DNA of 64,000 bases from Balanoglossus misakiensis (taxonomy: Eukaryota; Animalia; Hemichordata), in contig CM082585.2 of the NCBI GenBank assembly GCA_040954595.2, positions 3,936,902 to 4,000,901 on the forward strand, written 5' to 3'. The notes under the pieces were generated by a model that saw only the letters and a program-made list of their open reading frames with translations, did not search any database and was not told the DNA's origin. The translations under genes were made by a program, and so were the position numbers. Below, piece after piece: positions 335 through 41,074 of the stretch; the first letter of the stretch is position 1; each line of letters begins with the position of its first letter.

Positions 335-336
<2 letters not shown>

Positions 337-366
<30 letters not shown>

Positions 367-12501: not shown

Positions 12502-13242
12502 CTACAAAATGTGACAGAAAGAAGATGACTCCTGATTCTCCACACGCGTTGTATGTTCCGGGTTCCTGTATATGTCGAGTGGGTCTTCTGGTGGGGTATA
12601 TAAGCTGTAAGCGTAGTCAGGCTGTAGTAAACGGGTCGGTTTTCTCTTCAGTGAGGTATACCCGCGCTGCCGACTTGCACTTGTTACCATATCAAATAAT
12701 CGTTGGACTTGATCATGTGATTTGGTTCTATTGTTAAAAGCAACTAAACGTTGATCGCATTCATAAAGCAACCGCTTAAAATGGATTGGAATTGTACTCA
12801 AATATTCTCTCAGTGTAATACCATCTTCGATTAGTATGTCAACTCTTGTTAATACAACGATGAGGAATTGCATCATATCATCACCAAATACCGACTTTAA
12901 CATTTCGACGGTATCTACGCTTTCTTGTGTGAAACGGTCATCGGCACTGATGACAAGGCAAATAGCATCAATACCATCTCCCATTTCCTCAGCCAGGTCA
13001 ACTGATTTACCGATCTCTGACAACACGTACCGTCTGTCGTAACTTCGTGTATCAAAGGGTCCTGGAGTGTCGAATACAATTATAGTTGAATTTCCATAGC
13101 GTGTTTTTCCGAATACAGTTGACTCCGTAACTGATGACAACGATTTCTTGCTAATAAACGCCGGATAACCTAATATTGTGTTTCCTGTAGCACTCTTTCC
13201 AGTACCCGTACGCCCCACCATTGCAATACTCCAAATGGCCAT
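12502..13242 (-). CDS. AIG1/GIMAP-family GTPase (246 aa) ending in CaaX CHIL; paralog A
   Basis: G1 GRTGTGKSATGNTILG, G2 SVT, G3 DTPG, conserved box DRFTQE, G4 TRVD, G5 FNN; single coding exon; ends SSFCHIL*. Confidence 0.95.
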   Translation of the reverse strand: MAIWSIAMVGRTGTGKSATGNTILGYPAFISKKSLSSVTESTVFGKTRYGNSTIIVFDTPGPFDTRSYDRRYVLSEIGKSVDLAEEMGDGIDAICLVISADDRFTQESVDTVEMLKSVFGDDMMQFLIVVLTRVDILIEDGITLREYLSTIPIHFKRLLYECDQRLVAFNNRTKSHDQVQRLFDMVTSASRQRGYTSLKRKPTRLLQPDYAYSLYTPPEDPLDIYRNPEHTTRVENQESSSFCHIL

Positions 13243-13378
13243 TGTGATTAATACTGTATTCGAACATATTTAATTTAAGAGAGACTATAGTTAATCATTG
13301 CACATTGATTTAAAATACCTGAAACGGCCACATTGAAATAATTTAAAATACCAGATCTCATACAGCAACCATAATTTT

Positions 13379-13380
<2 letters not shown>

Positions 13381-13410
<30 letters not shown>

Positions 13411-13685
13411 CATACATACATACATACATACATACATACATACATACATACATACATACATACATACATACATACATACATACATACATACATACATACA
13501 TACATACATACATACATACATACATACATACATACATACATACATACATACATACATACATACATACATACATACATACATACATACATACATACATACA
13601 TACATACATACATACATACATACATACATACATACATACATACATACATACATACATACATACATACATACATACATACATACAT
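13381..13685. repeat. (TACA)n microsatellite, ~305 bp
   Basis: Same position as 337-1165 with near-identical flanks. Confidence 0.99.
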
Positions 13686-15366
13686 GATGCATGCATGCAT
13701 GCATTCATACAGACAGACAAGTTTGACTTTTCAAAATACCTGTTTTCAAATGCTCTTACCGTCAATTCGAATGGACGAATGCTCCAACTGCTTTGTCGTA
13801 ACTGCTAATTCTTAGAGTAGCAATACAATTAAAACAGCTGAGGTCATATCATGTGATAGTGTAGTCCACCTAATGCGTACGCCAATCAGTGGCAGGTTTA
13901 CACAAAAAAAAAAACAGTCGGCTTCAATTTTCAATACCAGATCCAGTGTTTTCAATGTGATACTCAGCCTGCGAGTACGACTTCTCCAAAGGGACAACGG
14001 ATTCCTAACATATGTTGTTTCCCAATCTTTTACGGAAAACCATTCTCTTGTTTTATTATGGAATGGTCGATTTTAACCAGGAATGGATTCCTAATAAAGA
14101 GGCAGGACGGGGAGGGGGTTACAGGTGATCCTCTCTCGAGAGGTCTGTTGGTGTTTGTCAGATAGTTTTTAAAAGGCCATTTGCATCTTTGAATTTTGGG
14201 TCCGAATCCGAATCTGAATTTTTGACAAATGTTGCATTACTATATTTCACGGCATGCGCATCGTAATCTTTGCCTGCTATTCTGTGAAGTTTGCCCTAGT
14301 CTCAATATAAGGTTTCCATTTAATTCTGCAAATTATCCCGGCGGAATTGTTTTGGTGGGTAGATAGCTTGTCTTATGTTAGAAATTTAAATGATGCTCTT
14401 GACTAGTCTTGTATCCTTGTCACGTACCACATTTTGACAGGGTCAGTCTGGTCTTACGATAAATTACCATTGTGACGATAGACCATGATATCCTTTGTGT
14501 AGAAATGAAACGAACAAACACATCAATGTACCTGTCACTGTTTGACGTCTGGCGATTGCCTTCGGACAGTGCCCATGGCATCGCATAAATATTTACTTCT
14601 ACAGTCTGTTAGTTTTACCATTGCAACAAAAGACCATGATAAACTTTAACACTGGGTATAGAAATGAAATGAACAAACACTTCAATGTACCTGGCACTGG
14701 CGTTTATTTACGTACAGGGCCCATGGTAACGCAAAAACATTTACTTATCCTTTTAACCCTTTCGAACAAGTTGTTTTCCTAAAAGCGAAAACTCAAGAAA
14801 ACCAAAATGACGGTAAAATATGTTTATCTGTTCACCTCAGTATCGTAACACCAACTTTAAAAATTTTTTTTTTTATTGAAAATCAACCATCAACAGTATC
14901 CACAATATCTCTTGTCTCAATAATGAGCGTACATGTATATATCGAATTAATCTCTCAAAATAGAGAAAGGGGTGGGGGGGGGGGGGGAGTACGCTTCAAT
15001 ATTCCCTATCGAGCTTGAATATTCTTTACCTGTTGGGTCAATTAAAAAAAAAACAGACAAAAGAAAGAAGACAAAGACAAACAGCAGGCAGACACCCTAA
15101 GTCTCCTTACAAAATACTCATAATCTTGTCACTAAGAACCACCGACATTAGTTCAACACACAGATTTACATGGGAGATTTAAACAGTGATACTTAAAAGT
15201 ACCGTGAATGGAAGTTTAAACAACAAAATCTTTCCATTTATTCCTTTTCTTTTGGAGATAAAGAATTCCATATATTGGACATAACTAACTTCTGTTCTAA
15301 GTAAAGAAAAATTGGGTAATTCCTTCTTTAGTTTATATTTATAGATACACATCTTATACGATATAA

Positions 15367-16497
15367 TAGTCCGGCCGCCAAATCCACTTTTTTTGCCGAA
15401 CCTTGTTTTGGCGTCTAAAGTTTTTTTTAAAGCGGATTCTGCTTGCATAGATCACCAGAGTGAAAGAAATGGTTACTGGAGCTCCGTCAGTGTTGAGCAA
15501 TTTGAGATAATTAGCATAAAAAAATGGCCGCCAAATGATTTCAAATTATCAATATATAGGCCGGCTGCCAAATCCGCTGTTTGTGACGAACCCTGTATTA
15601 GTGTCATCAGAGATTTTAAAGCGGATTCTGCTTGCATAGATCACCAGAGTGAAAGAAATGGTTACTGGAGCTCCGTCAGTGTTGAGCAATTTGAGATAAT
15701 TAGCATAAAAAAATGGCCGCCGAATGATTTCAAATTATCAATATATAGGCCGGCTGCCAAGTCCGCTTTTTGTGACGAACCTTGTATTAGTGTCATCAGA
15801 GTTTTTAAAGCGGATTCTGCTTGCATAGATCACCAGAGTGAAAGAAATGGTTACTGGAGCTCCGTCAGTGTTGAGCAATTTGAGATAATTAGCATAAAAA
15901 AATGGCCGCCGAATGATTTCAAATTATCAATATATAGGCCGGCTGCCAAGTCCGCTTTTTGTGACGAACCTTGTATTAGTGTCATCAGAGTTTTTAAAGC
16001 GGATTCTGCTTGCATAGATCACCAGAGGGAAAGAAATGGTTACTGGAGCTCCGTCAGTGTTGAGCAATTTGAGATAATTAGCATAAAAAAATGGCCGCCG
16101 AATGATTTCAAATTATCAATATATAGGCCGGCTGCCAAGTCCGCTTTTTGTGACGAACCTTGTATTAGTGTCATCAGAGTTTTTAAAGCGGATTCTGCTT
16201 GCATAGATCACCAGAGTGAAAGAAATGGTTACTGGAGCTCCGTCAGTGTTGAGCAATTTGAGATAATTAGCATAAAAAAATGGCCGCCGAATGATTTCAA
16301 ATTATCAATATATAGGCCGGCTGCCAAGTCCGCTTTTTGTGACGAACCTTGTATTAGTGTCATCAGAGTTTTTAAAGCGGGTTCTGCTTGCATAGATCAC
16401 AAGAGTGAAAGAAATGGTTACAGGAGCTCCGTCAGTGTTGAGCAATTTGAGATAATTAGCATAAAAAATGGCCGCCAAATGATTTCAATTATCAATG
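15367..16497. repeat. 189-bp tandem array (~6 units) made of the element's left TIR
   Basis: agcggattctgc recurs at 15431, 15620, 15809 and onward; each unit restarts with taggccggctgcca, similar to the terminal tagtccggccgcca; the reverse complement of the unit matches the right TIR. Confidence 0.95.
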
Positions 16498-17099
16498 TAA
16501 GAGATATAGAAATCACCTTTATAGTGCGAAAACAGGTTAGTTGTCATAATTGAGTATATTTAAATACTAATTTGCATAAGTTAACGCTCCATGACGTATA
16601 TACAAGTATTGTAAACCCTAAACATGAGTTACATACACGTTTTAACCAGATGAATGTTAATCTTTGCCGCAAAGGAATATGGCCGTCACTGTAGTAAAAT
16701 GAAAAATACAATGAAAACATTGCATTTCTCACTTTAGAACTTCATAAACAAAGCATGATCTCATCCAGTAGAACACATGGAAGTAAATGTACTCCACTGA
16801 GACATTGGATTTTTATTTTTCATTGCACAAAACTTGCGGAAATGTTTCACTATACTGATATTCCTTTCATTTTTGGCCATTTTATCATAAATTCATAAAT
16901 AAGTGTTTTCTTGATATACTATCAGGCAATATCATTTATTACACCTAATTAAAAGTACAGTGTAGATCAGAGATTATTTAAAGCTTAACTGTTTTTTATA
17001 AGTTGAACTGTATAAACGCAGATTATAACGTATTCTCTAAACTACAATAAACTACATTGAAATGTACATTAAAATGTACTAGACATTGTTCTGATCATA

Positions 17100-17560
17100 T
17101 TTGTGTGTTTCCAAATGAGTGTATGCAATCCTGAAAGACCCGTATACATATCCTTTATCTGTATCTCGGATAAAGATACACCTATTAAAAATGTTCGAGC
17201 AGAATGTCTCATTAGTCAACATGAGTTTTTTCCGGGATTTTAAGATTTGTTTACAAGGGATGGACAAAATAAACATTGGCCAAATTTTAGACAAGGATAT
17301 AATGAATAAAGTTAGCAACATTCTTATGATTCAGGACACACCTACAGCCTCCTATTCCTATATAAACACCATGGGAAGGAAACTGTCCCATTACAACAGA
17401 GACTAACATTACTGATGAAACAGGCTTTCTTTGGTGGCAGTCGTAGGCATGAGCATATTGTCATTAAACACAACTCAGGCTATATTTTTCAACAATGATG
17501 CCAAATGTAAATACACCGATGTTGAAATAATAAGAATGCTGAACTTCCTGTTACCTTTCT
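17100..17560 (+). mobile_element. Possible degenerate Penelope-like retroelement fragment nested in the Academ-like element
   Basis: Peptides QGMDKINIGQIL..PTASYSYINTMGRKLSHYN and KYTDVEIIRMLNFLL resemble, from memory, invertebrate Penelope-like ORFs; PLE-like end text (cctgccccacatgtgacacccgtc) also at ~44960 and ~63960. Confidence 0.4.
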
Positions 17561-19874
17561 ATACATCCATATGGAGCCAAGTTTATGTAATCTCTACGAA
17601 ATATGATGTAAAACTATTGCTTGTAAATGTTCCAGTAACACCTTAGATAAGTCGTCGATTTCATAATTGTGAACTATCCTACTATATGTGACCTACGGGT
17701 AGTCATAACCAGCTATAACCCTATAACCACTGAAATTAAATACAAACACTGGTCCCCAGATCGCATTTGTGATTCGCCTCGAAATAATGTACTGATCAGC
17801 TGAACGAGATCTTTCAACCTTCAAATCTCTGTTCACACTTTTATCCTGAAAACACTAGATAAAACTGTAAAGTCTTCCGATCTATCCCTTTGATGTGCGT
17901 TTTCGAAAAGAACTGGTGTGGAAGATGTTAAGCTTCTTATTTTAAATTCATTTATAGAAACAACTTGAGAAACCTGAAGGAATGCGCAAGAAGACCTTTA
18001 TAAAAATCAAGTAGAAATTGTCCCGACTCACACATACCTTGGCTCCATTTTTGATAATACATTAAAATGGGATGCCAACACGTATTTTGTAGTGAGAAAG
18101 AGCAGTGTTTGTATTTTTAAAGGAAATTGGCATCGTTTAGATAAGAAAGGGAAATTCATTCATTTAAAGCGTTCTAACATTTTCCTTCAGTTGACTGCTG
18201 CCTATCTGTCCTTAAAAGTAAAAAAATGCTGGAAAAGACAAGGCAGTTCCAAAATAATCTGCACTCCTGTTAGAAATTAGCAATGTTTTTTTTATAATCA
18301 ACAGGTATTTCGCAAAGCTTGCACAATCGATCCTTCAACATCCATGATTTATCACCATAGTTTAACTTCCTCCTCGTTCATTTTTAAAGGTTTCAGCTTG
18401 CAGGTTGAACAGGCACAAACATTCAGCTTTTAAACGATATGAGTTGATTGATGTTCCATGTGTATCCTTGCCCTTTTTAAATGTTCGAAATGTTTTCACA
18501 ATGTGTATGTATGTTTTTCAAGAGTCATTGTTTGCCAAGTTTTGTGATGAATAAACAAAACTCCCGAGATGCGGTAAAGTTTGCAACTAATATGAGGAAT
18601 TTAAAATTAGACACAGCTTATTACCTTTAAAACGAAATTGAGGCAGACATTCTCTGACTTTCGCAGAATAATTTACGAAATTCAGTGGTATCTAAAGAGA
18701 CTTTGTAATTCCAAATATGACTCATCAGTCACTCAAATGGCAAGTGACAGTATTTCTGGATTTGACTCACAATAATAGTTTGGCATTTTGGTAAATTACA
18801 CTTTAGTTTGTTCCTTTTGGTCAATCTTGACTGGGGTAACATTCTCGCATGATACGTTGTCCAATTCGGGACACCTGGTACGGCCACTTCAAGTAGTTCA
18901 AGGCGATAAAATATAGCAACTGCCATTATCAATTATTTCTTGGAGCTGGTAATTTTACCTCGTATGATAATGATTATTGGACTGGATATGACGGCATTAT
19001 GTTGCCTTTGAGAAAGGGCGAAGGATTACCTGGCTGCTCATGATAAATGTGTGATAATCAACATTAATTTTGCGAAAGAAGATTTATGTACTTGCAATTC
19101 TCCCGACTTTTTATAGATTTTTGCTACCCAGGTGAGTAATAAAAGTCTCATCTGGTCGACACAATTCCAAGATGGCCGAGTTTTTGCCATGTTTAAGAAA
19201 TGGGAGTTCATAAGCTAAAGTGATATTCGGTCATTCCGATACTTTGTAACTAAAAAAATTTTTAAATGTAAAAAAAGTTGATTGACTTTAATATGTCAAC
19301 TTCAAAGCAGAAATGTTTGACCAAAGGAAGTCATGAAATACATTAAACATATAATGTCTTCTATCTATTACTCTAGTGAATTGTCTACTTTTTACCCATA
19401 ATGCAATTATTATGGGATTTTACCCTCTAGCACAAAGTGAAAAACTATTTAAGGTGGCCAGAATTATAAAACAGTGATAAGAAATGTTTTAAAATGACTG
19501 CACGTAGCAAAATACATATGTAAAAGTTATTCAACAAAAACAGACGTTCACAGATGGCCACCATCTTGAAATTATGCAAATTAGCTCATTATAAATGGCA
19601 ACATTTATTTTCTAGTTTGTCTTAAGCGACAACTTGGTGAAATAAATGATAAAAACAAAGCTACAGGGTGTATAACGTTCGTTTGACTCTTCTTTCTCAG
19701 CCAAAATGCAATACGTTGGCGGCCATTTTGATTATGCTAATTTATTCAAATTGCTCAATGCTGACAGAGCTCCAGTAACAATTTTTTTCACTTTGGTGAT
19801 CTATACAAGCAGAATCCGCTTTAAAAAAAACTTTAGACGCCAAAACAAGGTTTACCCCTCTGGCGGCCGGACTA

Positions 19875-20410
19875 TAACAATCTGATTCAAAAGAGGTGAC
19901 CAGTTTTTTCCCCCAAGTATTATCTGTTTTGGGGTTGGGTCAAGTGCACATTTTAAAATCTTGTGCCATAAAGTATACATTTCAGCCCATAACTTTTTAA
20001 CGAAATCACAATTCTTAATTATATGTACTTATGTTTCTGGTGCATCTTGACAAAAAGAACACAAGTTTGAGTTTACTAATGGATATTTCATCCTATATAA
20101 CATTGCATTTGTGAAAAGAATATTATGGTTAATTTTCTATTGGAATTCACGATATTTACTGAAAATAGTGACTCTAAAAGGCAAATTATAAATAAATTTC
20201 CAATCCATGTCTTCATTAAAAAGTTGTTGAAAACATCTGACTTTTGGGCACAAGAAAAAAGCGTTTACAGACGATGTTTCTTAGCTGTTTAGTAGTCGAT
20301 TGTTACAATGGATATGACTTCTCCTTACAAAAGTAAAACAGTGTTAACTGGTCTTACACATTCTGGTTTACAGAATTTCCAGTTTGAAGGTAAAGAAGAA
20401 ATTAACACCA
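19875..20410 (-). mobile_element. L1/Tx1 relic, copy B (continues at ~15180-15366)
   Basis: Near-identical to ~7038-7570; split by the Academ-like insertion. Confidence 0.75.
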
Positions 20411-22663
20411 ACTTCTTAATAGAAGACAATAATCACAAAATGTTGTTTTTTTTCTTACAGAAAAATATTGCAATTTCCTTTTAACATATGGATTTTTAGA
20501 CATAAAGCCATACTTAAATAGTAAATCGTCTCAAAAAACCATTGTAAGAATATAACATGATAACCTTTGATACAAAAAACACAACTGAAAAAAGCTAATA
20601 TCAGACTTAAATCCCGGAACGTAATTTCTCCATGCGACATTATGGAACATGGGTTTATTAACAAACACGAATTTCAAGCAACTAAACGGTAGAACAAAAA
20701 CAACCACCACTTCTTTTCAGATGTCCTTATGTTGATATGTAATTTAATTGATGTTCTTAACTATTTTGGTATCCAAGTCACGAACCACATTATGACAAGG
20801 TAAATTACCATTGTAAGAATATAACACGATAACCTTTGATACTGGCTATATAAATTAAATGAACAAACGCTTCAATGTACCTGGCACTGTTTGGCGTCTG
20901 ACGATTGTCGTCCGACAGTTCCGCATGAAAAATTACTTTCACAGTCTGTTGGTCTTAAGATGAATTACCATTGCAACAAAAGACCATGATAAACTTTGAC
21001 ACTGGGTATAGAAATGAAACGAACAAACACTTCAACGTACCTGTCACAGCGTGGCGTCTGGCGTTTATTTACGGACAGGGCCCATGGTAATGCATAAATA
21101 TTTACTTATATCCTTTTAGCCCTTTCGAACTATAATGCATAAATATTTACTTATATCCTTTTAGCCCTTTCGAACTAGTTCTTTTGCTAAAAGCGAAAAC
21201 TCAAGAAAAACAGAAAAAAGACGCAAAACTATGTTTATCTGCTCACATTGGAATCGTAATACCAACTTCTTAAGAGAAGCCCAAAATCACAAAAGTTGTG
21301 TTTTTTCTTATAGAAAAATATTGCAATTTCCTTTTAACATGGATTTCTAGACATAAAACCATACTTAAATAGTAAATCGCCTAAAAAACCGCATCTAGAT
21401 TCGATATACAGGTAGATCAAGTATGATTTTCCCGTATTGCCAATTGGCGCCTATAGATTATGATCCGAGTACACAGCATTTCATGTAGAAACACGTCCAA
21501 GTAAAAAGTTATACATTTTCTAATATGCTGATGAAGGCAACTTTAAATTATACATTTTGTCAATTGAGAATAAAAATTGGGTCACAGCGAAATTTCTTTA
21601 ATAAATACAAAACACGCTTAACCATGCTTTCTCATTTGTGTGTTGTTGTGTTTTTTATACAAAACTAATCCACACTCATATGTAGAAAAGAATGTAAAGG
21701 ATTGGATAGATATCGTGCAAACTGACTTCTTTTTGAGAGGTTAATTGGTTTTTGTTTTCATATTTGTCGAATATCCTAGAAGAAATGCCCAACTTGGTGT
21801 CTAAACCACACTCATCTAATTGGCATAAAATTAATACAATATCATAATGGCCAATTTAACTTGATTGTTGAGGTCCAGGCTATCAGCACCTGTTACAAAA
21901 TATAAATTCATTCTTGTTTTAAATGTTAAAGTTATTTAATAAGTATCGTCCTTGCAAAGCAACATATTTAAGAAATTACAAGAACTATAGATCTGTTCTT
22001 CAGAAGGCCATTTCAAGAACATGTTTGATTCAAATATTTTACATTCATACCTGAGCGAATGAGACGCTCTTGAAATTTAAAATAAAATGGCAATACTTTG
22101 AAGAACAGTACTATTACATAGTACATGTCATTTTAATGTACTGTTCAATCTGTCATGTCCGTTTCTGAGAATAACTGTTACTTAATGTAGTTTCCTTTTA
22201 ACTTGACCTGGACCATAAACATGTAATTTGTAAACATTTGAGTTATTGAGTAATTAACTAAAAATGAATAATAGGTTGCTTTATTGGTATTTTAATGTTA
22301 CCAAATTATTTTTAATCTACGCGCGCGCATCATGCGTTGCAAAATTGTGGTTTGTCTTCTCTGCATCACTTTACGTCATCTGCCTCAGAGACATTTAATT
22401 TTGTGAGAGAGATCTATTAGGATTGCAAATATTTGTTGTTCATTTTAGTAACAAAGAAGCGTTATTAATTATATGAGGCGAACGTGATGATAGCGGAGAT
22501 TTGCATTAATAGTTTAGGAAATCTTGGTAGTGCTAGCTGACGCAATATCATTCTTCAGTACTCAGTACAAATGAAAAGCAAACGGTTCAAGCATTTTAGC
22601 GACCGAATTGTCTGTAGCATTTTGCATATAAACGCTGAATTTAATTGTATCCATGTTTCAGAT

Positions 22664-24868
22664 ATGGCTCATATGACAAGGATGTCCACCGTTGCCGTGG
22701 TTGGCCTTGCTGGCAGTGGTAAAAGTGCAACAGCAAACACCATTCTAGGCAGGACCGCGTTCCACAGCCAGAAATCCATGGGTGTCACAACTTGGAAAAC
22801 CTGCGCCGATCAACGAACAGATGAAGCGAGCGTCCTTGTCATAGATACCCCTCCTCTTCCCGATTGCCGTGAAGACAGGATACCCATCGATGAGACAGCC
22901 AGAGAGTTAAGCAGATGTTGGGATATCGCCAGACAAAGAGGAAATAAAGGTCTGGATGCAGTTCTGCTGACTTTGAACGCCAACGACAGAATATCCGAAG
23001 AATGCATCGATAGTATCAAATTTCTTGAAACTCTCTTCGGAAGCGAGCTCAACTCATACATGATTTTGGTCTTCACTAGACTGGATCAACTAAGAAAGGA
23101 TAAAACCGGTCTCAAAGATCTGTTATCAGACAGTCCAGACTACCTGAAACAACTGATCAAGGACTGTGGTGACCGCTACATTGGATTTGATAATAAGGAG
23201 CCAGACCAAGATAAGAAAGTCGCCCAAGTGATCGATCTTGTAACAATGATAAGAAATATGAAGCAAGTAAATCGCATTCCGTTCGAGGTCGACATTAGGC
23301 GGAATATGCAGACAGCGATTCAATCCCACAAGAAGGCCTGTGCTGATAGAGCACGCAAAATGGAGCGTTCTGCATCAGAAGCGGTGGCATCATACGCGAA
23401 AGCCTTCCCTAGTACAAGCGATCCAATGCCGGAGCAGGTTTATTTCGAACCGGTTGCAGCTGCTGGACTTCCATCAAGTCATTTGAGGTGAGGCTTTGAT
23501 GAGGACGTTGGTTAAGTGTTATAGCTACATTATTTTATTCCCTTTTATAATGGCCAACCTACAATGAAAATAATGTGAACTAAACATGTTGCATTTTAAA
23601 AGGCACACTTCTTATAGTGATAGCGTTTGAGAATTTTACATAGAAGTGTCCTTATGGAGTAACAGAGAAAGAAGAGACCTCTCGTCCTCGATTTTTAGGG
23701 TTCGATTCCTATCGTATAGCTCTGCGTCGTTTTTTTAAAGTGAAATCAAAGTTTGTATACAAAAAGTTCGCCCAAATTGTCATTACGTATTAGACGTGAA
23801 CCTGTCTGTGTTTTTAAGTAACTGTCAAGAAAGTGTCCGGTTTACTAGTAAACAAAGGAATGGCAGGTGATAATTACAATAGGTTTAAGAACAAAATGCA
23901 TGGACACAATGCAAAGTGAGGCATAACGATTTTAATTTTAATATTTTAATATATTCTATTCGATGATCATTATATCGATCATATCTTTATTTCGAGAATG
24001 TATTTTTAAAATTTCAGAGGACATTCAGCTCTGACACCAGTAATCTCACAAAAAACTAACGCGTATTATACTTGAGGTATTTGGCACCTGTTAATGTTTT
24101 TATCATATTATCGATTTTAGGAACGAAGGCGAACGTCAAGGAAGAACACTTGCTTTGGCAGTCGTTGGTTTAACTGGAACCGGTAAAAGTGCAACAGCGA
24201 ATACAATTCTAGGCCGGGCCGCGTTCCAGAGTCGGCGGACTATGACTGTCACAACCACGCAAACTAGCGCCGAACGACGCACAGATGAACCGAATCTCTT
24301 TGTCATAGACACCCCTCCTCTACCCGATAGCAATGAAGCAATGTTAACAGAGACTATAGCGGAAGAGCTGAGTAGGTGTTGGAAACTTGCCCACCAAGAA
24401 GGAAGTAAAGGTTTGGATGCAGTCGTTCTGACTTTCAACGCTAATGATCGCTTAACGGAGGAACACGTCCATGGATTCGAGTTTCTTTATGGGCTGATTG
24501 GTGAAGATCTGATGAAATACCTGATTGTGGTATTCACGAGGGAAGACCAACTTGCAAAGGAAGGCATAGGATTGAAGGAGCTATTGCGCGACAGTACACC
24601 AGACTTGTCGTCTTTGCTGCAGAAATGCAACAATCGTGTCTTAGCATTTGATAACAAGACAAAAGACACGAGTGCGAAAGAGAAGAAAGTGGAAGATCTG
24701 GTAAAAATGATAAGAAGCATGAGAAAAGAAAACGGCAATATCCAGCTTACAGTTGATGTTATGAGCAAATACAAACGTGCAAGTGAGTCATACGGTGTTG
24801 CAGCTGCAAAGAGAGCCCAAAAACATCACCGGTACGAATTACAGCAACAGAGGTGTTGTTTGTCATAA
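22664..24868 (+). CDS. Tandem two-domain AIG1/GIMAP protein (523 aa predicted; exons 22664-23487 and 24121-24868), G3 = DTPP in both domains, CaaX CCLS; paralog B
   Basis: Acceptor tttcAG at 22660-61 then ATG 22664; donor GAG|GTGAGG after 23487 (phase 2) joins acceptor ttttAG at 24119-20 in frame (AG+G=Arg, then NEGERQGRTLALAVVGLTGTGKS). Both halves have G1 GxxGxGKSATANTILG, a DR(I/L)(S/T)EE box, FTRxD and FDN. Confidence 0.85.
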
Positions 24869-28298: not shown

Positions 28299-29108
28299 AT
28301 GGCTGCATCTGATAACACCGTCGTTATAACACTGCTTGGTAGAACAGGAAGCGGTAAAAGTGCAACTGGTAACACAATCCTTGGTGCAGGCAAGCTCTTC
28401 GATACCAAACGTCAGTTATCTTCTGCCACCAAGAAGACGTCGTGTGAAAGACGAATCGTTGATGGCGTAAATACTCTGGTCATTGATACACCCGGACTAT
28501 TTGATACGGATGAACAATCCACGCACGAATACATTTTGTCGGAGGTCACAAAATGCGTTGGCGTGGCAACAGCTCACAGTAACGGCATAGACGCATTCAT
28601 CTTAACACTCAATGGTGACGAACGCTTCACAGAAGAGAGTGTCATAACTATGAAGTTCCTGCAGAAATTATTCGGAGACTCGATGCTCGGTTACAGTATT
28701 GTCATATTCACCAGAAGAGACCAACTTGAAGAAGATGACACGACGTTAGATGAGTTCTTGAAATCGGCGCCCCCATTCCTACAAACAATCATAGCAAAGT
28801 GCGGCGGGCGTGCCATTGCGTTTGATAATAGTAGACGCGGCGCCCAAGATCGGTCTCAAGTGAATGAGTTAATGGGTATGATTAGACAAATTCGACGTGT
28901 GCATGGAAACACGAAATTCACGCACGTTATAACAGATAGAGTCAAGCAAGTAGTTGATGATGATAAACGACAATCTGGTACAGTCAGTAATGACGAAGAG
29001 TCACGAAAGATTATAAAAGAGAGCCCCGGCATCTTTAGTAGAATATCAGGTGCCATAGCCAGTTTTGTACGTCCCGTCGTTGATTTTTTCAAAAGCCTTC
29101 TCAACTGA
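28299..29108 (+). CDS. AIG1/GIMAP GTPase (269 aa), amphipathic C-terminal tail; paralog C1
   Basis: GRTGSGKSATGNTILG, DTPG, ERFTEE, FTRRD, FDN; ends IFSRISGAIASFVRPVVDFFKSLLN; start aaaATGg after an acceptor. Confidence 0.95.
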   Translation: MAASDNTVVITLLGRTGSGKSATGNTILGAGKLFDTKRQLSSATKKTSCERRIVDGVNTLVIDTPGLFDTDEQSTHEYILSEVTKCVGVATAHSNGIDAFILTLNGDERFTEESVITMKFLQKLFGDSMLGYSIVIFTRRDQLEEDDTTLDEFLKSAPPFLQTIIAKCGGRAIAFDNSRRGAQDRSQVNELMGMIRQIRRVHGNTKFTHVITDRVKQVVDDDKRQSGTVSNDEESRKIIKESPGIFSRISGAIASFVRPVVDFFKSLLN

Positions 29109-31963: not shown

Positions 31964-32805
31964 GCTGCTCTACGAAGCTCGTAGTTACCTTCTGACCGAG
32001 ACATTTGCGCTTGAACGGAGTGGGTTCCCCCCGATGGGTTCTTGCCGATTGCCGCACCCCGGCGGGTATGAAAGTGTAAGACGTCGATCCACCGGCCGGC
32101 TGCACCGCTGCCAACATGACCAGCTCCACGCCACTTTGAGCTGAACTGCAGTCGGATATCCCACCCGGCTGCCGGACAGCATATGAAAGTGTCTGAGGCC
32201 TTTTCTAGTCAAAGTGTACACGTTTAAAACTTTTGCGTTTTCGGAATGGAAATAGCGGAACAAGAACATGGATATATACTAATCATGAACGCCAAACAAA
32301 CACGTTGAAAAAGCCAGATCTGAAAAAAAATTCTTGTGGCGTCCGCCGTTGGGCGTGATGACGCGTCAACGTTTTTTTTCAAACAACGTAACCTTGTCAC
32401 GCTCAGTTGATATATTTTGCTGCCACAAACAACAAGTCCATGCATAGGTCGCGAAAGTTCTCAAGCGGCTGGGTGATCGCTGCAAGGTTAGCGGCGGCCT
32501 CGCACACCCGAATTTGCCACAAAACTATCAGTCCACACAGCAATGCGGTTCAAACTCTTCCCTTGTATTTATTTCAACAACATAAATTCAGAATACAACA
32601 CGGCAGTTTGGTACGTCTATCCTACACTGCTAATTCTCATCTCAATCTCTAAAAAAAGTTCAACAGACGGGATACACTGCAACCCGCGGAACTAGCAATT
32701 CACGTCTCTGCTTCAGAGGAATCTACCGACCTGAAGTAGGGGAACCCAGTCCGTTCAAGCGTAAATGTCTCGGTCAGAAGGTAACTACGAGCTTCGTTGA
32801 GCAGC
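31964..32805. mobile_element. GC-rich element with ~65-bp terminal inverted repeats, superfamily unassigned
   Basis: gctgctctacgaagctcgtagttaccttctgaccgagacatt..gggttcccc / ggggaaccc..aatgtctcggtcagaaggtaactacgagcttcgttgagcagc; no clear TSD. Confidence 0.7.
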
Positions 32806-34544
32806 ATTCGAATGTAAAACCAGAATGTACAAAACTCATTGCCTATGAAAGGGGCTTGTTCAGTACGTACTTTCCCTTGTGTAATGCGTCTGTTTGTGTA
32901 GCATTATTGAGGGATTAAGTAAAAGCTCAGTGGGTCGCGAGAATGTGGTGCCGTGTGAATTATCTGAATTTGAAACGGTTAGCAATGTCCCCCACAATAT
33001 GACTAAATCATCGAAAGGTGATGCTTTTCGTAAAATTATTTTATTTTACTGAGAGTTCGACGTATACGAATATAGAACAACTGTTTCAAAATCACTTGTA
33101 ATTGTTGAGTGTACATTTTCTCGTCCACGACTCTGTCGTGCAGTTGGTTAAAGTGCATAGGAAACAATGTACGGCAAGAACAGTCCTCGATTGACTGGTG
33201 TCAACAAAGAAATATCTTTCCACATCCCCCCGCCTCGTTCGTCTCCACAGATGTTTCTGAACGGTTTACGAAGTGTTTCAAAATATTACTTTTGCATAAA
33301 AGAGTTATATGGCGTAATATATACTATTCCAAATTTCCAAATATAAACGGGTTGCGATAAAAATATTCGTGTAACCGTGTGATGGCGCCATTTTGCACAT
33401 CTGTTAAAAAGCTGGTCAAACTGGGAACAATTTTTTTTCTTTAACAGCTTCATTGGCTAACATCCAATTATTGATATATTTCCGAAACTGTAACGCCGAT
33501 TTGCACGAAACTTGATCCCACAATCCACTAATAACGTAATGGTATTTGCAATTAGCAGTTAATTAGTATGGCAGATTGGTATCTGAAGTGCGTTTAATAA
33601 ACTGTTATAAAGTAATAATCTGTATATGCCGGTACTGTTTTCTGCTCTTTGTAGACAATCCATTATCCAAAAAAGATTCACCTTTTATAATTTCATTAAT
33701 ATCATAAATGGGTCTGGCCATTCATATAAACTGTTCGCATAAATGACTTAATTTATGATTAATAAAGAGATCTTTGGGTTTTCACTCTATTTGACCGAAT
33801 GTCCAAAGCCAATTGGACTTAGTGATAATCCTGAATGGGCTGTTTGCTATACGAGCCATATGCCGTATGCCGTAGAAATTGTTCAACTACGTTAAAGTAA
33901 CTTTTTCTGAAATTTAGCAGGATGATGACAGGTGCAAATAACTCCTGCATTGCATTGGGATTTATTTTATTGAAACGTTGCAAGTGTCATTTTGGGGTGT
34001 GATTCATTTTCTCCAAACTTTAATTTCACGACACAAATGTGCACGTTTAATTTCAAATCCAAATCCACTAAGCCAAATGTCATACAAATCGGTATGCCTC
34101 TTCTCCATGGAAAGATCTAGATCTGATAACATAACGGTGAGCGTGGCTGTCATAATTAAAAGTTATTCCCATACAAAAAACCCCACTTATTTTGCCGCAT
34201 GTTGTGCATCGCGTTGATCTGAGCTCTACGTCCCAGGTGAAAATATAAATTGAGGTGCGGACAAAAACAAGTTTAATAGGATTCATCCACATGTGGCAAC
34301 CAAGCGTGTTCTTTGTTGGGTTAATTAATTAAGACCCTGATAATTTTTGTCATCCGCACAATTAAAATTGGTACCATATCGTTTGTGATTGGTCAATTAC
34401 GCTCTGCACTCTTGGAACAGGTGTAACCATTCTCTCTAAACTAGACTATTAAACCCTATATAACTACTTCAAGGCTCTGTTATAACGTTAACAATGATCC
34501 CCCACCTTTGTTATTATCGCTAGGGTCCTGATTCGCAGTTGAAA

Positions 34545-35360
34545 ATGGCTACTTCTCTTGACACCGTCGTTATAACACTGCTTGGTAGAACAGGAAGCGG
34601 TAAAAGTGCAACTGGTAACACAATCCTTGGTGCAGGCAAGCTCTTCGATACCAAACGTCAGTTATCTTCTGCCACCAAGAAGACGTCGTGTAAAAGACGA
34701 ATCGTTGATGGCGTAAATACTCTGGTCATTGATACACCCGGGCTATTTGATACGGATGAACAATCCACTAATGATTATGTTCTTACAGAGGTCACAAAAT
34801 GCGTTGGTGTGGCAACAGCTCACAGTATCGGCATAGACGCATTCATCTTAACACTTAATGCTGACGAACGCTTCACAGAAGAAAGTGTGAGAAGTCTGAA
34901 GTTCTTGCAACAACTATTTGGAGATAAGATGCTTAGTTACAGCATTGTATTATTTACTAGAAGAGACCAACTTGAAGAAGAAGAAGAAGACATAACATTA
35001 GATGCCTTCTTGAAAACAGCTCCCCCATTCCTGGAAACAATTATAGCTCAGTGCGGCGGGCGTGCCATTGCGTTTGATAATAGTAGACGCGGGGTTAGAG
35101 ATCGTTCTCAAGTAAAAGAGTTAATGGATATGATTAGACAAATTCGACGTGTGAATGGAAACAGCAAATTTAGTGATGAAATCACACACAAAGTGAAACA
35201 AGTGGTTGAGGCAGATAAACGACAATCTGGCAAATATGATAATGATGCCATGGCAGACAAAATTATCAACGAAAGTTCTGGCATTTTAGGCAAAATAATG
35301 TCTGTCATAAGGGATTTTGTCCTGCCAATCGTCGGAATTTTCTTATCTATATTTTTATAA
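34545..35360 (+). CDS. AIG1/GIMAP GTPase (271 aa), hydrophobic C-terminal tail; paralog C2
   Basis: Intact G1-G5 motifs; ends ILGKIMSVIRDFVLPIVGIFLSIFL*. Confidence 0.95.
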   Translation: MATSLDTVVITLLGRTGSGKSATGNTILGAGKLFDTKRQLSSATKKTSCKRRIVDGVNTLVIDTPGLFDTDEQSTNDYVLTEVTKCVGVATAHSIGIDAFILTLNADERFTEESVRSLKFLQQLFGDKMLSYSIVLFTRRDQLEEEEEDITLDAFLKTAPPFLETIIAQCGGRAIAFDNSRRGVRDRSQVKELMDMIRQIRRVNGNSKFSDEITHKVKQVVEADKRQSGKYDNDAMADKIINESSGILGKIMSVIRDFVLPIVGIFLSIFL

Positions 35361-36549
35361 TATTTCAGACCATAAAACCTTTGTCATGAGTTGACACTAT
35401 CATAAATTTCGATACATAAAATTATCCTAATTATCAGTAGCCACCTATAACAAAATTCATATGCTAGGCAAATGAAAATAATTAACCAGAAACTCGGGGT
35501 GTTTCTTGATACAGTCCAATCATTATATCACAACAGTATACCGAGCAAGTTTTATCACTAATTACACAGAACATTCAGATATCTGTGAGGTCAATACATG
35601 TACAAGAGTCGTTGAATGTAGTGTTGCTTAAGACATTTATCCCTGACTACAAGGGGCTCATTATCTACGCCAGTTAAGTAAAGTGTCTTTAGTAAACATA
35701 CAGTCTACCAAACATAAAAGCAGTATATAGCAACTGCCGTCACATTTGGTGCAGATATTTTTTTATACATGTATTTATGTCAGCTCAGTTAAGATGCAAA
35801 TTATCGATAGTAAATACAATTGACTGTGTTATCCAATTTGGTGCTGTAGTTATCGAAATAAACTAATTTCGAAGGGTCATTATGTAAATAAAACGGCATA
35901 ATGATTATAAATTGCAAACCGTCACTTAAATACAGTCCTAGATATGTTTGTTTTGACTTACAGTGCTGATGGCACAGGCCATTAATTATGAAAATTAACA
36001 GTTAAGTAACATGGCACAATACCAAATATCTAATGGCGCATTCAGATGATAGCAAGATTAAACATGTTACATGTTTTCCAATTTGGTGATGTCATTATAC
36101 ATGTATATGCTCATCATCACTCCTCCAAGGTGATATTTTTTAGTTAAGTCAAGATTGTTATTTGAACCGTCCATTGCATTTATAATAAGTGTTAACAATA
36201 TTATAACAGAAAATTGCTTGTTAAAAGAGGTGTGTTATTAAAGGGGAATGACGTCTACTAGTACATTAACTTTTACATGTATTTCCATGTATTTTGTATG
36301 GAATGTAATATATTTCAAAACACATTTCCCAAAATTAAAGTGTTTTTGTCCAATACCCTAATTAATAGGCAAAAGACTGTACCTTGAAATATATAGTAAA
36401 GATTTTTAATAAATACTAAACCAATCTCTTGTTAGACTTTCTGTAATCTGTTGAATGGTTCGGATTTCTATTCGCACGCTGCAGAGCTGTAAAAATTTGA
36501 TTGTGCACCACATCCCTATAATCACCAATCACAAATGTATAATATGTAA

Positions 36550-39497
36550 GTCCTCCACATTTAGTATGACGACATCATCGAAAAGTGATGCTTTTCACTT
36601 TTCGTAAAATTATTTTATTGTACTGAGAATTCAACGTATACGAATATAGAACAACTGTTTCCAAATCACTTGTAATTGTTGAGAGTACACTTCCTCGTCA
36701 CGCGTCCACGACTCAGTCGTGCAGTTGGTTAAAGTGCGTTGGAATCAATGTACGGCAAGAACAGTCCTCGATTGACTGGTGTCAACAAAGAAATATCTTT
36801 CCACATCCCCCCACCTCGTTCGTCTCCACAGATGTTTGTGAACGGTTGACGAAGTGTTTAATCATATAACTTTTGCATAGAAGAGTTATATGGCGTAATA
36901 TATACTATTCCAAATTTCCAAATTTAAACGGGTTGCGATAAAAATGTTCGTGTAATCGTGTGATGGCGCCATTTTGCACATTTGTTAAAAAGCTGGTCAA
37001 ACCACAGGGTACCCAGGCTCGGTTACTGACGTAAACAAACCAATCAACGAACGAACAAACAAACAAACAAACAAACAAACAAACAAACAAAAATATAAAT
37101 GAACACAACCAACGCACATATGAACCTACAATGAAAATAAAACTATCCATGCATAAGATCTAGGGCCTGTATATCTTGCTACCATATATTTCTATGACTG
37201 CCTAGCCGATACTCAAACCTCTTTCTCGCAAGCCAGACCATACCCCAAATCAAAACCTCATGCCAAAAATAACACTGGAAATGTATTATACATAAACCTG
37301 GCCTCTTGAATCAGTCCATGTCTTCACCTTCCATCGTACGTAGATATGCCAATTCCATAATTCAAAAAACAATACTGTATCTTCACTTGGGCCAGTATTC
37401 ATCAGAACTAATAAGTTGGTTCATCCGGGTTTTGAATTTACCGCCCAACCCTAATCAGCCAATCACATGCGCTGTAGCTCCTGCATAGGCAAGCCATGAT
37501 GTCATCGCCACTGGTCGGTCACCGTTATTTGAATCTAACGTCATTAGTCTCGTACGCTGACTAACAGGCCGTAGAACCCGGATGAGGTTTGAGTATAGGC
37601 TAGGCAGTCATAGGAATATATGGTAGCAAGATATACAGGCCCTAGATCTTATGCATGGATAGTTTTATTTTCATTGTAGGTTCATATGTGCGTTGGTTGT
37701 GTTTATTTATATTTTTGTTTGTTTGTCTGTCTGTTTGTCTGTCTGTCTGTTTGTTTGTTTGTTTGTTTGTTTATTGGTTTGTTTACGTCAGTAACCGAGC
37801 CTGGGTACCCTGTGGTCAAACTGGGAACAATTCAATTATTGATATACACGTATTTCCGAAACTGTAACGCCGATTTGCACGACACTTGATCTCACAATCC
37901 TATAATAACTTCATTAAATTTGCATACTTTTCATGGGTTATGACAAATTTTCGACTTTGCTCCTGATTATTTATCAACTGACGCAAAGTACAAACAATAG
38001 CTATACAAATACGCAGTCTGTCGCCCAGTGACACCAATTGGAAAATGGTATCACTCACAGCAAGTTGGGCGGAAGTTGGTCCTGGCGCTTTTTCCCCATG
38101 ATTCAAATTGCAGTAAATTCTGTTAACTTTCCCTTGTTTTTGTAAAAAAAATCGCGGGACATATACACTGCGAAAATGTTTTTTATTCTGAAAGAGTGAC
38201 CCCAAAGCTACCAAATTATGTAGAAATCAGCTGGACCTGATTTCCCCTTACAATGCTAATGAAGTACGTTTATTAAACTGTTATACAGTAATAATCTGTA
38301 TATGCCGGTACTGTCTTCTGCTCTTTGTAGACAATCCATTATCACAAAAAGATTCCTCTTTTATAATTTCATTAATGTCATAAACGGTCTGGCCATTCAT
38401 ATAAACTGTTCGCATAAATGACATAATTTAGGATTAATAAAGAGATCTTTGGGTTTTCATTCTATTTGACCGAATGTCCAAAGCCAATTGGACTTAGTGA
38501 TAATCCTGAATGGGCATTTTGCTATACGAGCCAAATGCCGTATGCTGTTTGCCTCATATAGAAATTGTACAACAACGTCAAAGTAACTTTTTCTGAAATT
38601 TATCAGGATGATGACAGGTGCAAAATAATCCCGCATGGCATTGGGTTTTATTTTATTGAAACGTTGCAAGTGTCATTTTGGGGAGTTTTACTAGAATTAA
38701 GAATTCCCATTCGCATTTGCACATACAAAATGTATGTTAACTTGAAAACGACTTAACCAAATCTGATGCAATTTGATGTCACATATAAAGGGAATGATCT
38801 AGATTTGTTTAAATAATGCTTTGTGTGTTTTGTATAATATTAAAGGAGTAATTTGCAGAATTATGCATATGACAATATGTCTCAAGTACGCTTCAGGAAG
38901 GTAACTTGGACGAATATCTTTATTTTCGCTATTTTGATTGACTCATTATGCGTGCTTTTATGAGTGTCATTTGGGGAAGTTTAGCTAAAATAATAGGCAT
39001 TTTCATTCACACATTGCAAAGTGTACACTTTTAATTTCAAATCGGGTTAACAAAATGCCGATGTTATTAAAAAAACACTGAACCAATTTCAGAAAAACTC
39101 AATAAAGTCAGATCACAACTCCACGGAACTAGACCTGATAAGATTTAGTGTCTGTTTTGTTCACACAATTGCAATATTGCATACTTTTTTGCATACTTTG
39201 ACTGTCTAACATTGCACTTCTGGGTAAAACAGCTGTTTAGGTTGATATGTTCGTTAAAGAGATTATAATTTGTTTCCAAATTGTGAGGTGATCTCTGCGC
39301 TATCTTTCCTTATCACAACATTGATACAAAATTGCAGGTAAGCTTTTGCTCACATCTCTGACGTACCGGTATCTCTAAACTAAAACCTATACGAGAAAAA
39401 CTGTACTTCACTGCATGACTTGAATGCCCTGCGATAAATATAACTATAATCTTCCTTTTTTGTTATTATCGTTAGGTTTCCAGATTCGCAGTTGAAA
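36550..39497. repeat. Duplicate of the C2 upstream/intron region (32987-34544), interrupted by insertions
   Basis: 36550-37002~32987-33421; 37815-37900~33415-33526; 38260-38685~33585-33997; weaker similarity continues to the ATG. Confidence 0.85.
37003..37814. mobile_element. Foldback non-autonomous element, P/Galileo-like (7-bp TSD, ~220-bp TIRs)
   Basis: Termini CACAGGGTACCCAGG..CCTGGGTACCCTGTG; TSD GTCAAAC (36996-37002, 37815-37821); empty site at 33415-33421. Confidence 0.8.
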
Positions 39498-40169
39498 ATG
39501 GCTACTTCTCTTGACACCGTCGTTATAACACTGCTTGGTAGAAAAGGTGCCGGTAAAAGTTCAACTGGTAACACAATCCTTGGTGCAGGCAAGCTCTTTG
39601 ATACCAAAAGCCAGTTATCTTCTACCACCAAGAAGACGTCGTGTGAAAGACGAATCGTTGACGGCGTAAATACTGTGGTCATTAATACACCCGGACTATT
39701 TGATACGGATGAACAATCCACGCACGAGTACATTTTGTCGGAGGTTAGAAAAATCCTTGCCTTAGCTAGAGCTCACAGTAACGGCATAGACGCATTCATC
39801 TTAACACTCAATGGTGACGAACGCTTCACAGAAGAGAGTGTCATAAGTATGAAGTTCCTGCAGAAATTATTCGGAGACTCGATGCTCGGATACGTCATTG
39901 TCTTATTCACCAGAAGAGACCAACTTGAAGAAGACGACACGACGTTAGATGAGTTCTTGAAAACGGTGCCCCCATTCCTACAAACAATCATAGCAAAGTG
40001 CGGCGGGCGTGCCATTGCGTTTGATAATACTAGACGCGGCGCCCAAGATCGGTCTCAAGTAAATGAGTTAATGGGTATGATTAGACAAATTCGACGTGTG
40101 CATGGAAACAGGAAATTCACGTACGAAAAAGTTGATAAAGATGATAATAGCACATGTCTCATAACCTAA
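39498..40169 (+). CDS. AIG1/GIMAP protein (223 aa), G3 = NTPG, CaaX CLIT; paralog C3
   Basis: GRKGAGKSSTGNTILG, INTPGLFD, ERFTEE, FTRRD, FDN; ends DDNSTCLIT*. Confidence 0.93.
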   Translation: MATSLDTVVITLLGRKGAGKSSTGNTILGAGKLFDTKSQLSSTTKKTSCERRIVDGVNTVVINTPGLFDTDEQSTHEYILSEVRKILALARAHSNGIDAFILTLNGDERFTEESVISMKFLQKLFGDSMLGYVIVLFTRRDQLEEDDTTLDEFLKTVPPFLQTIIAKCGGRAIAFDNTRRGAQDRSQVNELMGMIRQIRRVHGNRKFTYEKVDKDDNSTCLIT

Positions 40170-41000: not shown

Positions 41001-41074
41001 TAAAAGTTGACAAAAACGAAGGCATGGTTTATTAGCGACTAGCATTTATCCACGTGACGTAATCCACCTTTTGC

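What the first reader, a model, noticed from the sequence alone, without database searches (positions are those of the whole stretch)
12502..40169. GIMAP/AIG1 cluster that pairs G-domains of different predicted catalytic state with different membrane anchors
Seen: five complete genes end in five different tails. A ends CHIL, B ends CCLS, C3 ends CLIT, C1 has an amphipathic-pattern helix and C2 has a hydrophobic tail. Their G3 motifs also differ: DTPG (A, C1, C2), DTPP twice (B), NTPG (C3). All keep the conserved-box Arg. Established: CaaL favours geranylgeranylation, CaaS/T favours farnesylation, and a second nearby Cys can be palmitoylated. GIMAPs dimerise and activate each other through the conserved-box arginine finger (human GIMAP7 stimulates GIMAP2), and anchored human GIMAPs use TM tails. 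As I recall, CaaX-like ends also occur in plant IAN and some fish GIMAPs, so CaaX alone is not new. Inference: a combinatorial cell-autonomous immunity module in which prenylated, G3-altered members act as scaffolds or regulators on distinct membranes for active partners.
Basis: partly seen in the sequence, partly recalled or inferred. Interest (0 to 1): 0.78.

Follow-up and report, generated by a model that had tools for sequence, protein, structure and literature searches.

The report
Acorn-worm GIMAP cluster with lipid tails
A row of immune-type GTPase genes, closest to those of acorn worms, includes three that end in lipid-attachment signals, one of them a likely twin-domain, predicted slow enzyme with a matching gene in a second acorn worm, so the cluster probably follows the known human scheme of an anchored quiet partner and a free activating partner, with a lipid in place of a membrane-spanning tail.

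Summary
The motifs and tails are as described: six AIG1 domains in five genes, plus a copy of A cut by the window's start. Nearest relatives are acorn-worm GIMAPs. The three CaaX ends are not chance, but they are ordinary for the family: 101 of 348 sampled relatives have one. The proposed rule, prenyl tail with altered G3, fails: of 101 CaaX relatives only 2 lack any canonical DTPG domain, against 36 of 247 others. C1 and C2 carry one homologous helix, which in a model of C1 overlays the last helix of human GIMAP7, so there are two tail classes, not five anchors. The scaffold-and-activator logic is published for human GIMAP2/5 with GIMAP7. What is unusual: gene B (DTPP twice, CCLS) groups with a Glandiceps two-domain DTPP/DTPP protein ending CILL, so this rare combination is conserved; and C3, a C1 offshoot, gained CLIT along with clustered changes after switch II. 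A C1-B2 dimer model passes (0.79, control 0.00), probably by likeness to solved GIMAP dimers. No RNA evidence was available. The scan earlier noted anchored-plus-soluble GIMAP-like pairs in fungi, not this locus. Verdict: modest new variant.

The parts
1..192 (-). A', 5' part of a second copy of gene A, cut by the window start
   Evidence: tblastn 98.6% over 73 codons; the three base differences lie upstream of the ATG; flanks 1-1667 match 13051-14185 at 96.5-96.7%
12502..13242 (-). Gene A: single-exon CDS, 246 aa, G3 DTPG, ends CHIL (predicted geranylgeranyl)
   Evidence: ATTAAA 103 nt after the stop; long branch, no orthologue resolved
22664..23487 (+). Gene B coding exon 1: first G domain (DTPP), helix and Pro-rich linker
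   Evidence: donor GAG|GTGAGG; no AATAAA/ATTAAA within 700 nt downstream
23488..24120 (+). Predicted 633-nt phase-2 intron joining the two B domains (523-aa product by arithmetic)
   Evidence: GT...AG ends in matching phase; two-domain counterpart in Glandiceps; no RNA seen
24121..24868 (+). Gene B coding exon 2: second G domain (DTPP), basic helix, ends CCLS (predicted farnesyl, possibly plus palmitate)
   Evidence: 5 K/R against 1 D/E in the 20 residues before the motif, AATAAA 173 nt after the stop
28299..29108 (+). Gene C1: 269 aa, DTPG, terminal amphipathic helix of GIMAP7 type
   Evidence: (hydrophobic moment 0.65)
34545..35360 (+). Gene C2: 271 aa, DTPG, same terminal helix but more hydrophobic
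   Evidence: best 19-residue hydropathy 2.04, against 2.69 and 3.38 for two relatives with clear hydrophobic tails; not folded
39498..40169 (+). Gene C3: 223 aa, C1 offshoot with NTPG, altered P-loop and post-switch-II helix, no terminal helix, ends CLIT
   Evidence: ATTAAA 87 nt after the stop
32998..34000 (+). Non-coding blocks upstream of C2 shared at 91% with blocks upstream of C3 (36565-37002, 38260-38686); possible promoter or 5' exon

Best explanation
This is a tandem array of GIMAP/AIG1 GTPase genes, closest to those of acorn worms, that likely works like the human set: C1 and C2 would be the active GIMAP7-like enzymes, and the predicted two-domain, lipid-tailed product of B would be a slow membrane-bound scaffold that they likely dock on and trigger. 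Steps: (shown) domains, motifs, tails, tree positions; (predicted) B is spliced to a 523-aa protein, farnesylated at CCLS and held by a basic helix and perhaps palmitate; (inferred from general GTPase chemistry, recalled) the proline in DTPP has no backbone NH to contact the gamma-phosphate, so B holds GTP or turns over slowly; (modelled) C1 meets B2 head to head with Arg109 at B2's P-loop and switch I; (inferred) A is an independent, canonical geranylgeranylated GIMAP like those of plants, fish and birds; C3 is a young C1 offshoot that swapped the fold-back helix for a farnesyl signal and would act as a weak-binding decoy, if it is functional. An immune role is inferred from the family only.
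For: AIG1 hits. B1, B2 and both domains of Glandiceps P0006 form one clade, 99/96; P0006 and its isoform are DTPP+DTPP and end CILL and have accession numbers between C-like genes on one 29-Mb sequence. Human GIMAP1/2 have DTPD, GIMAP5 DTPS, GIMAP4/7 DTPG; GIMAP2 and 5 bind GTP but do not hydrolyse it alone and GIMAP7 stimulates GIMAP2 (PMC8201404 passages). C1 model (pLDDT 84.8) overlays GIMAP7 3zjc_B over 245 residues, rmsd 1.9 A, Z 31.6, residues 6-268 on 7-293. C1-B2 complex: score 0.79, best of 3 controls 0.00, runs agree in at least 94% of contacts, partner pLDDT at least 86; the mark was reached by 51 of 78 solved and 2 of 108 mismatched pairs; a like complex is solved, so this shows likeness only. 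Arabidopsis IAN9 ends CINL and loses plasma-membrane localisation when GFP is fused to its C-terminus or the tail is cut (10.1101/277269 passages), as a prenylated protein would (my inference; the authors credit the basic residues).
Against: No family-wide link of altered G3 to CaaX. DTPP without CaaX in three Saccoglossus proteins. Prenyl class differs between B and P0006. B1 and B2 are each other's sisters (97/94) rather than pairing with P0006 domains 1 and 2, and P0006 domain 1 is on a very long branch with a degenerate conserved box and G4, so the two-domain state may have arisen twice. P0006 is itself a gene prediction. B exon 2 holds a donor-like site CAA|GTGAGT near 24783, before the CCLS codons. 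That G3 causes the low activity of human GIMAP2/5 is a correlation here, not shown. A dimer pass cannot tell which family member binds.
Confidence: 0.5

Rival explanations
1. Birth-and-death array without a fixed partnership: each gene acts mainly as its own homodimer, and the mix of tails and G3 states results from duplication, gene conversion of the G domain and independent gain of CaaX.
For: G domains of C1-C2 differ by dS 0.285 while their tails differ by dS about 1.85; C3 has a C2-like 5' end and flank, a C1-like domain and its own tail; A is freshly duplicated. Tandem arrays with dual domains and varied tails are usual in snails and lancelets (PMC7053062, PMC12373286 passages). No G3-tail coupling in the family.
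Against: B's rare combination is kept in Glandiceps beside C-like genes; all six domains keep the trans-acting Arg and the dimer surface.
Confidence: 0.27
2. One reading: a lipid code sends A, B, C1, C2 and C3 to five different membranes, with prenylated G3-altered members as regulators of active partners.
For: X residues L, S, T differ and B has a CCaX motif, which in Cdc42 allows prenyl plus palmitate (PMC9868626 passages). Human GBPs are repositioned by prenyl-dependent heterodimers (PMC2998424 abstract). C2's tail is more hydrophobic than C1's.
Against: C1/C2 tails are one homologous helix that models as folded back; prenyl class not conserved in the B counterpart; A is canonical and prenylated; family trend is opposite; no orthologue of A or C3 tails found among 17 named acorn-worm proteins.
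Confidence: 0.12
3. C3 is a decaying copy (and B1/B2 may be two genes), so two of the three striking combinations are not functional units. This can hold alongside the best explanation for the rest.
For: C1-C3 dN/dS 0.61 against 0.26 for C1-C2; changes in G1, switch I and the G3 Asp; tail 46 residues shorter; acidic residues before CLIT; a weak donor CAC|GTACGA at the point of divergence. B1 has its own in-frame stop at 23489-91.
Against: C3 has no stop or frameshift in the domain, ends in a well-formed CaaX (1.3% by chance) with a poly(A) hexamer 87 nt on, and 6 of its 17 private amino-acid changes fall in 8 codons (7 of 20000 shuffles) on the helix where helix-tailed acorn-worm proteins keep Gly/Ser; a short conversion tract could also give such a cluster.
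Confidence: 0.25

Closest known systems
Human GIMAP cluster: anchored GIMAP1/2/5 with soluble GIMAP7/4, and inhibitory GIMAP6
   Same: Tandem cluster, AIG1 fold, conserved-box Arg, anchored members with non-Gly G3 (DTPD, DTPS), proposed scaffold-plus-activator heterodimers (PMC8201404, PMC9111091 passages).
   Different: Mammalian members use transmembrane tails and have no prenylation motif (PMC3804274 passage); here the anchor is a CaaX, the G3 change is to proline, and the anchored altered member has two domains.
Human GIMAP7 (PDB 3zjc)
   Same: DTPG; C1 model overlays it to the last helix (245 residues, 1.9 A).
   Different: About 31% identity; shorter coiled-coil; activity of C1/C2 untested.
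Glandiceps talaboti GIMAP8-like XP_077978196/7 (P0125, P0006)
   Same: Two DTPP domains, CaaX end, same clade as B (99/96), near C-like genes.
   Different: Ends CILL, not CCLS; first domain far more degenerate; short linker and tail; a prediction, uncharacterised.
Plant IAN/AIG1 and fish, bird, reptile, snail CaaX-tailed GIMAPs
   Same: CaaX after an AIG1 domain; AIG1/IAN8 is listed as prenylated in a review (PMC6866125 passage).
   Different: 99 of 101 sampled CaaX members keep at least one canonical domain: they resemble A, not B or C3.
GIMAP8 and dual-AIG1 genes of snails and lancelets
   Same: Tandem G domains, one exon per domain in Biomphalaria (PMC7053062 passage); DTPP occurs in bovid GIMAP8 domains (P0082, P0090).
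   Different: Those DTPP proteins have no CaaX; separate origin by tree position is likely but was not tested for them.
GBP1/2/5 and IRG GKS/GMS GTPases (analogues, not relatives within the family)
   Same: Prenyl-dependent repositioning by heterodimers (PMC2998424 abstract); G-motif-altered members regulate active ones through the G interface (PMC3042988 passages).
   Different: Different GTPase families; interferon-driven vertebrate systems; GMS change is in G1.

Membership tests
GIMAP/IAN (AIG1) | AIG1 domain above Pfam cut-off | tested here: met
   6 of 6 domains, 154-183 bits against cut-off 27
GIMAP/IAN (AIG1) | G1 GxxxxGKS, G2 Thr, conserved-box Arg, G4 TRxD, G5 (A/G)F(D/N)N | tested here: met
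   6 of 6; Arg aligned to GIMAP7
GIMAP/IAN (AIG1) | G3 DxxG | tested here: inconclusive
   Met in A, C1, C2; not met in B1, B2, C3, but accepted members GIMAP1/2/5 also depart, so it does not define membership
GIMAP/IAN (AIG1) | GIMAP fold with C-terminal helical extension | tested here: met
   C1 Z 31.6 to 3zjc; B2 Z 25.4 to 2xtn; A, B1, C2, C3 not folded
GIMAP/IAN (AIG1) | GTP binding, dimer-stimulated hydrolysis | not testable with these tools
   Only a model, likely by likeness to solved dimers
GIMAP2/5-type silent anchored scaffold (for B) | Transmembrane C-terminal anchor | tested here: not met
   B tail best hydropathy -0.16, ends CCLS: works like, is not a member
GIMAP2/5-type silent anchored scaffold (for B) | Binds GTP, no hydrolysis alone, stimulated in trans | not testable with these tools
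   Inferred from DTPP
CaaX-prenylated proteins (A, B, C3) | Cys at -4, aliphatic a2, acceptable X, then stop | tested here: met
   CHIL, CCLS, CLIT; no prenylation predictor was available
CaaX-prenylated proteins (A, B, C3) | Motif is the end of the real transcript's product and is modified | tested here: inconclusive
   Poly(A) hexamers follow each stop; no reads could be laid
Combinatorial G3-by-anchor code | Altered G3 enriched among prenyl-tailed members | tested here: not met
   40/101 against 93/247, p=0.81; wholly altered 2/101 against 36/247
Toc34/Toc159 | Closer to Toc than to GIMAP by sequence or fold | tested here: not met
   Z 16-18 to Toc34 against 23-32 to GIMAPs

The most novel reading that the evidence does not exclude
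Acorn worms evolved, independently of mammals, a silent GIMAP scaffold anchored by a prenyl group instead of a membrane helix: a twin-domain DTPP pseudo-switch kept in two lineages, offering two docking sites for GIMAP7-like activators; and the array keeps producing new regulators by joining a gene-converted G domain to a new CaaX tail while resurfacing the helix that the lost tail covered (C3).
Probability: 0.3. Interest if true: 0.58.

Novelty: new variant of a known kind. Interest (0 to 1): 0.36.

Why it matters
If B behaves as predicted, the anchored-silent plus soluble-active design of GIMAPs arose twice in deuterostomes with different anchors, which would make it a general working principle of the family and give a small, intron-poor test set (B2, C1, C3) for the open question of what controls GIMAP hydrolysis. 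A side result is more general: about three in ten sampled non-mammalian-dominated GIMAP/IAN relatives end in CaaX, which my searches found mentioned only for the plant family, so prenylation is probably a common and overlooked GIMAP anchor.

Tried and rejected
No whole genome was held, so the HMM census across this genome could not be run. Single-sequence search with B2 returned only four plant proteins. The representatives search was dominated by multi-domain proteins and gave no new acorn-worm orthologue among the best BLAST partners. No orthologue of A was resolved. A first regex table mis-read a few G3 motifs and was redone on HMM columns; both show no enrichment. A family-wide test of the post-switch-II helix residue gave only weak, kin-confounded support (charged in 23 of 72 CaaX against 34 of 183 others, p=0.03; 255 of 348 proteins could be scored). 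Rejected: C2 as a clear transmembrane protein (borderline hydropathy, homologous to C1's helix); C3's tail as a simple frameshift of C1's (same frame, an 18-nt gap and many substitutions); further GIMAP fragments in the window (none beyond A'). A possible extra in-phase exon at 24018-24062 inside the B intron was noticed by eye and not tested. Literature searches: GIMAP+CaaX (15 papers listed), GIMAP+AIG1+prenylation (2), AIG1+farnesyl/geranylgeranyl (3), GIMAP+hemichordate (4), GIMAP2+helix+switch II+amphipathic (0): none listed describes a prenylated animal GIMAP or DTPP; subscription papers, including the primary GIMAP2/GIMAP7 structure papers, were not readable, and supplements were not opened. 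Earlier-findings look-ups gave nothing for this genome.
Full report
Observation. Six-frame translation and Pfam show six AIG1 domains at the stated place: A on the minus strand (12502-13242), B1 (22664-23491), B2 (24121-24868), C1 (28299-29108), C2 (34545-35360) and C3 (39498-40169). A seventh domain, a copy of A, starts at 192 on the minus strand and runs off the window. B1 ends on a good splice donor one base before its stop, and B2 begins at an acceptor in the same phase, so B is most simply one 523-residue gene; no poly(A) hexamer follows B1 within 700 nt, whereas one follows A, B2, C1, C2 and C3. Three C-x-aliphatic-x ends among five genes would be expected about twice in 100,000 from this window's composition (51 of 3847 random frame ends).

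Relatives. The best full-length partners are from Ptychodera, Glandiceps and Saccoglossus at 40-52% identity, so the animal is probably an acorn worm; GIMAPs in this group are already recorded (PMC3723955, PMC8857920 passages). In a tree of 24 G domains, C1-C3 group with a Ptychodera protein (93/86); B1, B2 and both domains of Glandiceps P0006 form a starred clade (99/96); A is unresolved (a 38-row tree agrees). P0006 and its isoform have DTPP in both domains and end CILL, and their accession numbers lie among C-like genes on the same sequence (adjacency is inferred from accessions, not coordinates). Against: the X residue differs (S here, L there), B1 and B2 are sisters rather than matching P0006 domains one to one, P0006 domain 1 is very diverged, and three Saccoglossus DTPP proteins end in an amphipathic helix with no CaaX. 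The wider DTPP grouping has only 80/84 support.

G3 against tail. I tabulated all 352 proteins fetched, a score-ranked sample of more than 10,000 hits that is rich in multi-domain vertebrate predictions and not phylogenetically independent. Cys stands at -4 in 118 of 352, against 1-12 at each other position from -1 to -12. After dropping four same-cluster duplicates, 101 of 348 end in a strict CaaX; they include named plant, fish, bird, snake and snail proteins. Any altered G3: 40 of 101 CaaX, 93 of 247 others (p=0.81). Last domain altered: 9 of 101 against 52 of 247 (p=0.008). No canonical domain at all: 2 of 101 (P0006 and an unnamed DTPD protein) against 36 of 247 (p=0.0002; many of the 36 are mammalian GIMAP8-like kin). 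So CaaX is common, usually goes with a canonical domain as in A, and the B combination is rare. NTPG was seen in four other proteins, each time in the first domain of a multi-domain protein.

The C tails. C1 and C2 tails align with each other and with most acorn-worm DTPG proteins and a rodent GIMAP7. The C1 model (pLDDT 84.8, pTM 0.86) overlays human GIMAP7 over 245 residues to its last helix, and GIMAP2 and GIMAP5 to the helix that precedes their membrane anchors. The model may echo those structures, and such a helix could still bind membranes when released, but the simplest reading is a fold-back helix, not a separate anchor class. C2's version is more hydrophobic (2.04) yet below two clear hydrophobic tails (2.69, 3.38); C2 was not folded. 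The B2 model is a GIMAP domain followed by one long straight helix ending at CCLS.

C3 and how the array evolves. C1-C2 G domains differ by dS 0.285 but their tails by about 1.85; C3 has a C2-like flank and first codons, a C1-like domain (dS 0.097, dN/dS 0.61) and its own short tail. This points to gene conversion or unequal crossing-over of domains against older tails (inference). Of 17 residues private to C3, 13 are in the first 95 codons and 6 fall in codons 84-91 (7 of 20,000 shuffles), the helix after switch II where 10 of 10 helix-tailed acorn-worm DTPG proteins shown have Gly or Ser and A, B1, B2 have Asp or Lys. I infer that this surface carries the fold-back helix and was resurfaced once C3 lost it; I had no coordinates to check the contact, and the family-wide test was weak. 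Loss of the G3 Asp, which helps bind Mg (PMC5084822 passage), predicts weak nucleotide binding. Decay remains a live rival.

Mechanism. In humans, anchored GIMAP2 and GIMAP5 bind GTP without hydrolysing it, GIMAP7 stimulates GIMAP2, and anchored members are proposed to be scaffolds triggered by unanchored ones (PMC8201404, PMC4201521 passages); GIMAP6 binds no GTP and inhibits GIMAP7 through the G interface (PMC9111091 passages). The PDB sequences show DTPD in GIMAP1/2, DTPS in GIMAP5 and DTPG in GIMAP4/7. Mapped here: C1/C2 as activators, B as scaffold, C3 as possible decoy, A independent. A proline at the G3 glycine cannot donate the amide bond to the gamma-phosphate (recalled GTPase chemistry), a harsher change than Asp or Ser. 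A C1-B2 model with GTP and Mg scored 0.79 against 0.00 for the best of three controls, with at least 94% contact agreement and partner pLDDT at least 86 (mark reached by 51 of 78 solved and 2 of 108 mismatched pairs); C1 Arg109 touches B2 residues 18-19 and 40-43, and the G3 residues are not among the listed contacts. GIMAP dimers are solved and close cousins pass this test, so it shows compatibility, not partnership. For CCLS, the second Cys lies within the aaX that is normally cut off; it can be palmitoylated only by the bypass route known for Cdc42 CCIF (PMC9868626 passages).

What is in print. Mammalian GIMAPs are stated to lack prenylation motifs (PMC3804274 passage). Plant AIG1/IAN8 is listed as prenylated in a review (PMC6866125 passage). 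IAN9 ends CINL and needs a free C-terminus for plasma-membrane localisation, though the preprint never uses the word prenyl (10.1101/277269 passages). Tandem and dual-domain arrays are described for snails and lancelets (PMC7053062, PMC12373286 passages). Prenyl-guided heterodimers and motif-altered regulators are known for GBPs (PMC2998424 abstract) and IRGs (PMC3042988 passages). My searches listed no paper on prenylated animal GIMAPs or on DTPP; the library lacks most subscription papers, and motif tables in supplements (Biomphalaria Table S1, IAN9 figures S1 and S3) were not seen and could bear on this.

Verdict. A real, intact GIMAP array. CaaX tails and altered G3 motifs are each ordinary for the family and are not coupled in general; the scaffold-activator idea is known. 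The conserved prenyl-tailed twin-DTPP gene and the C3 tail swap are a modest new variant worth a bench test. Interest 0.36.

Noticed in passing
window 1-1667 and 13051-14185: Near-identical (96.5-96.7%) duplication of gene A with its upstream TACA microsatellite, about 13 kb apart; recent tandem copy or an uncollapsed haplotype.
   Followed up: partly
window 1655-3079 (+): Frameshifted LINE-type reverse transcriptase remains (RVT_1, E 1.4e-10) between A' and A.
   Followed up: partly
window 52932-53337 (+): Exons of an alkaline ceramidase-like gene (Pfam Ceramidase E 1.3e-6 for 52932-53099).
   Followed up: partly
window 57396-57596 (-), probable signal-peptide exon near 58760-58820 (-): Secreted C-type lectin gene (Lectin_C E 6e-11) 17 kb from the GIMAP array.
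   Followed up: partly
window 15361-16496 and 41074-42054: Tandem arrays of 189-bp (6 copies, one frame open for 402 codons) and 130-bp units (7.6 copies).
   Followed up: no
window 10239-10395, 47490-47668, 48053-48200, 53105-53453, 57155-57299, 61427-61593, 62213-62670: Several self-complementary (inverted-repeat) elements of 80-450 bp, likely MITE-type transposons.
   Followed up: no
window 24018-24062 (+): AG...GT-bounded, stop-free 45-nt stretch inside the predicted B intron that would keep the frame; possible optional linker exon.
   Followed up: no
Arabidopsis IAN9, preprint 10.1101/277269: Its membrane-targeting tail ends CINL and is blocked by C-terminal GFP; prenylation is a likely unrecognised cause.
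   Followed up: partly
P0005, P0008 (Ptychodera), P0007/P0126 (Saccoglossus): Public models that join partial G domains of neighbouring genes; likely mis-predicted across tandem arrays.
   Followed up: no
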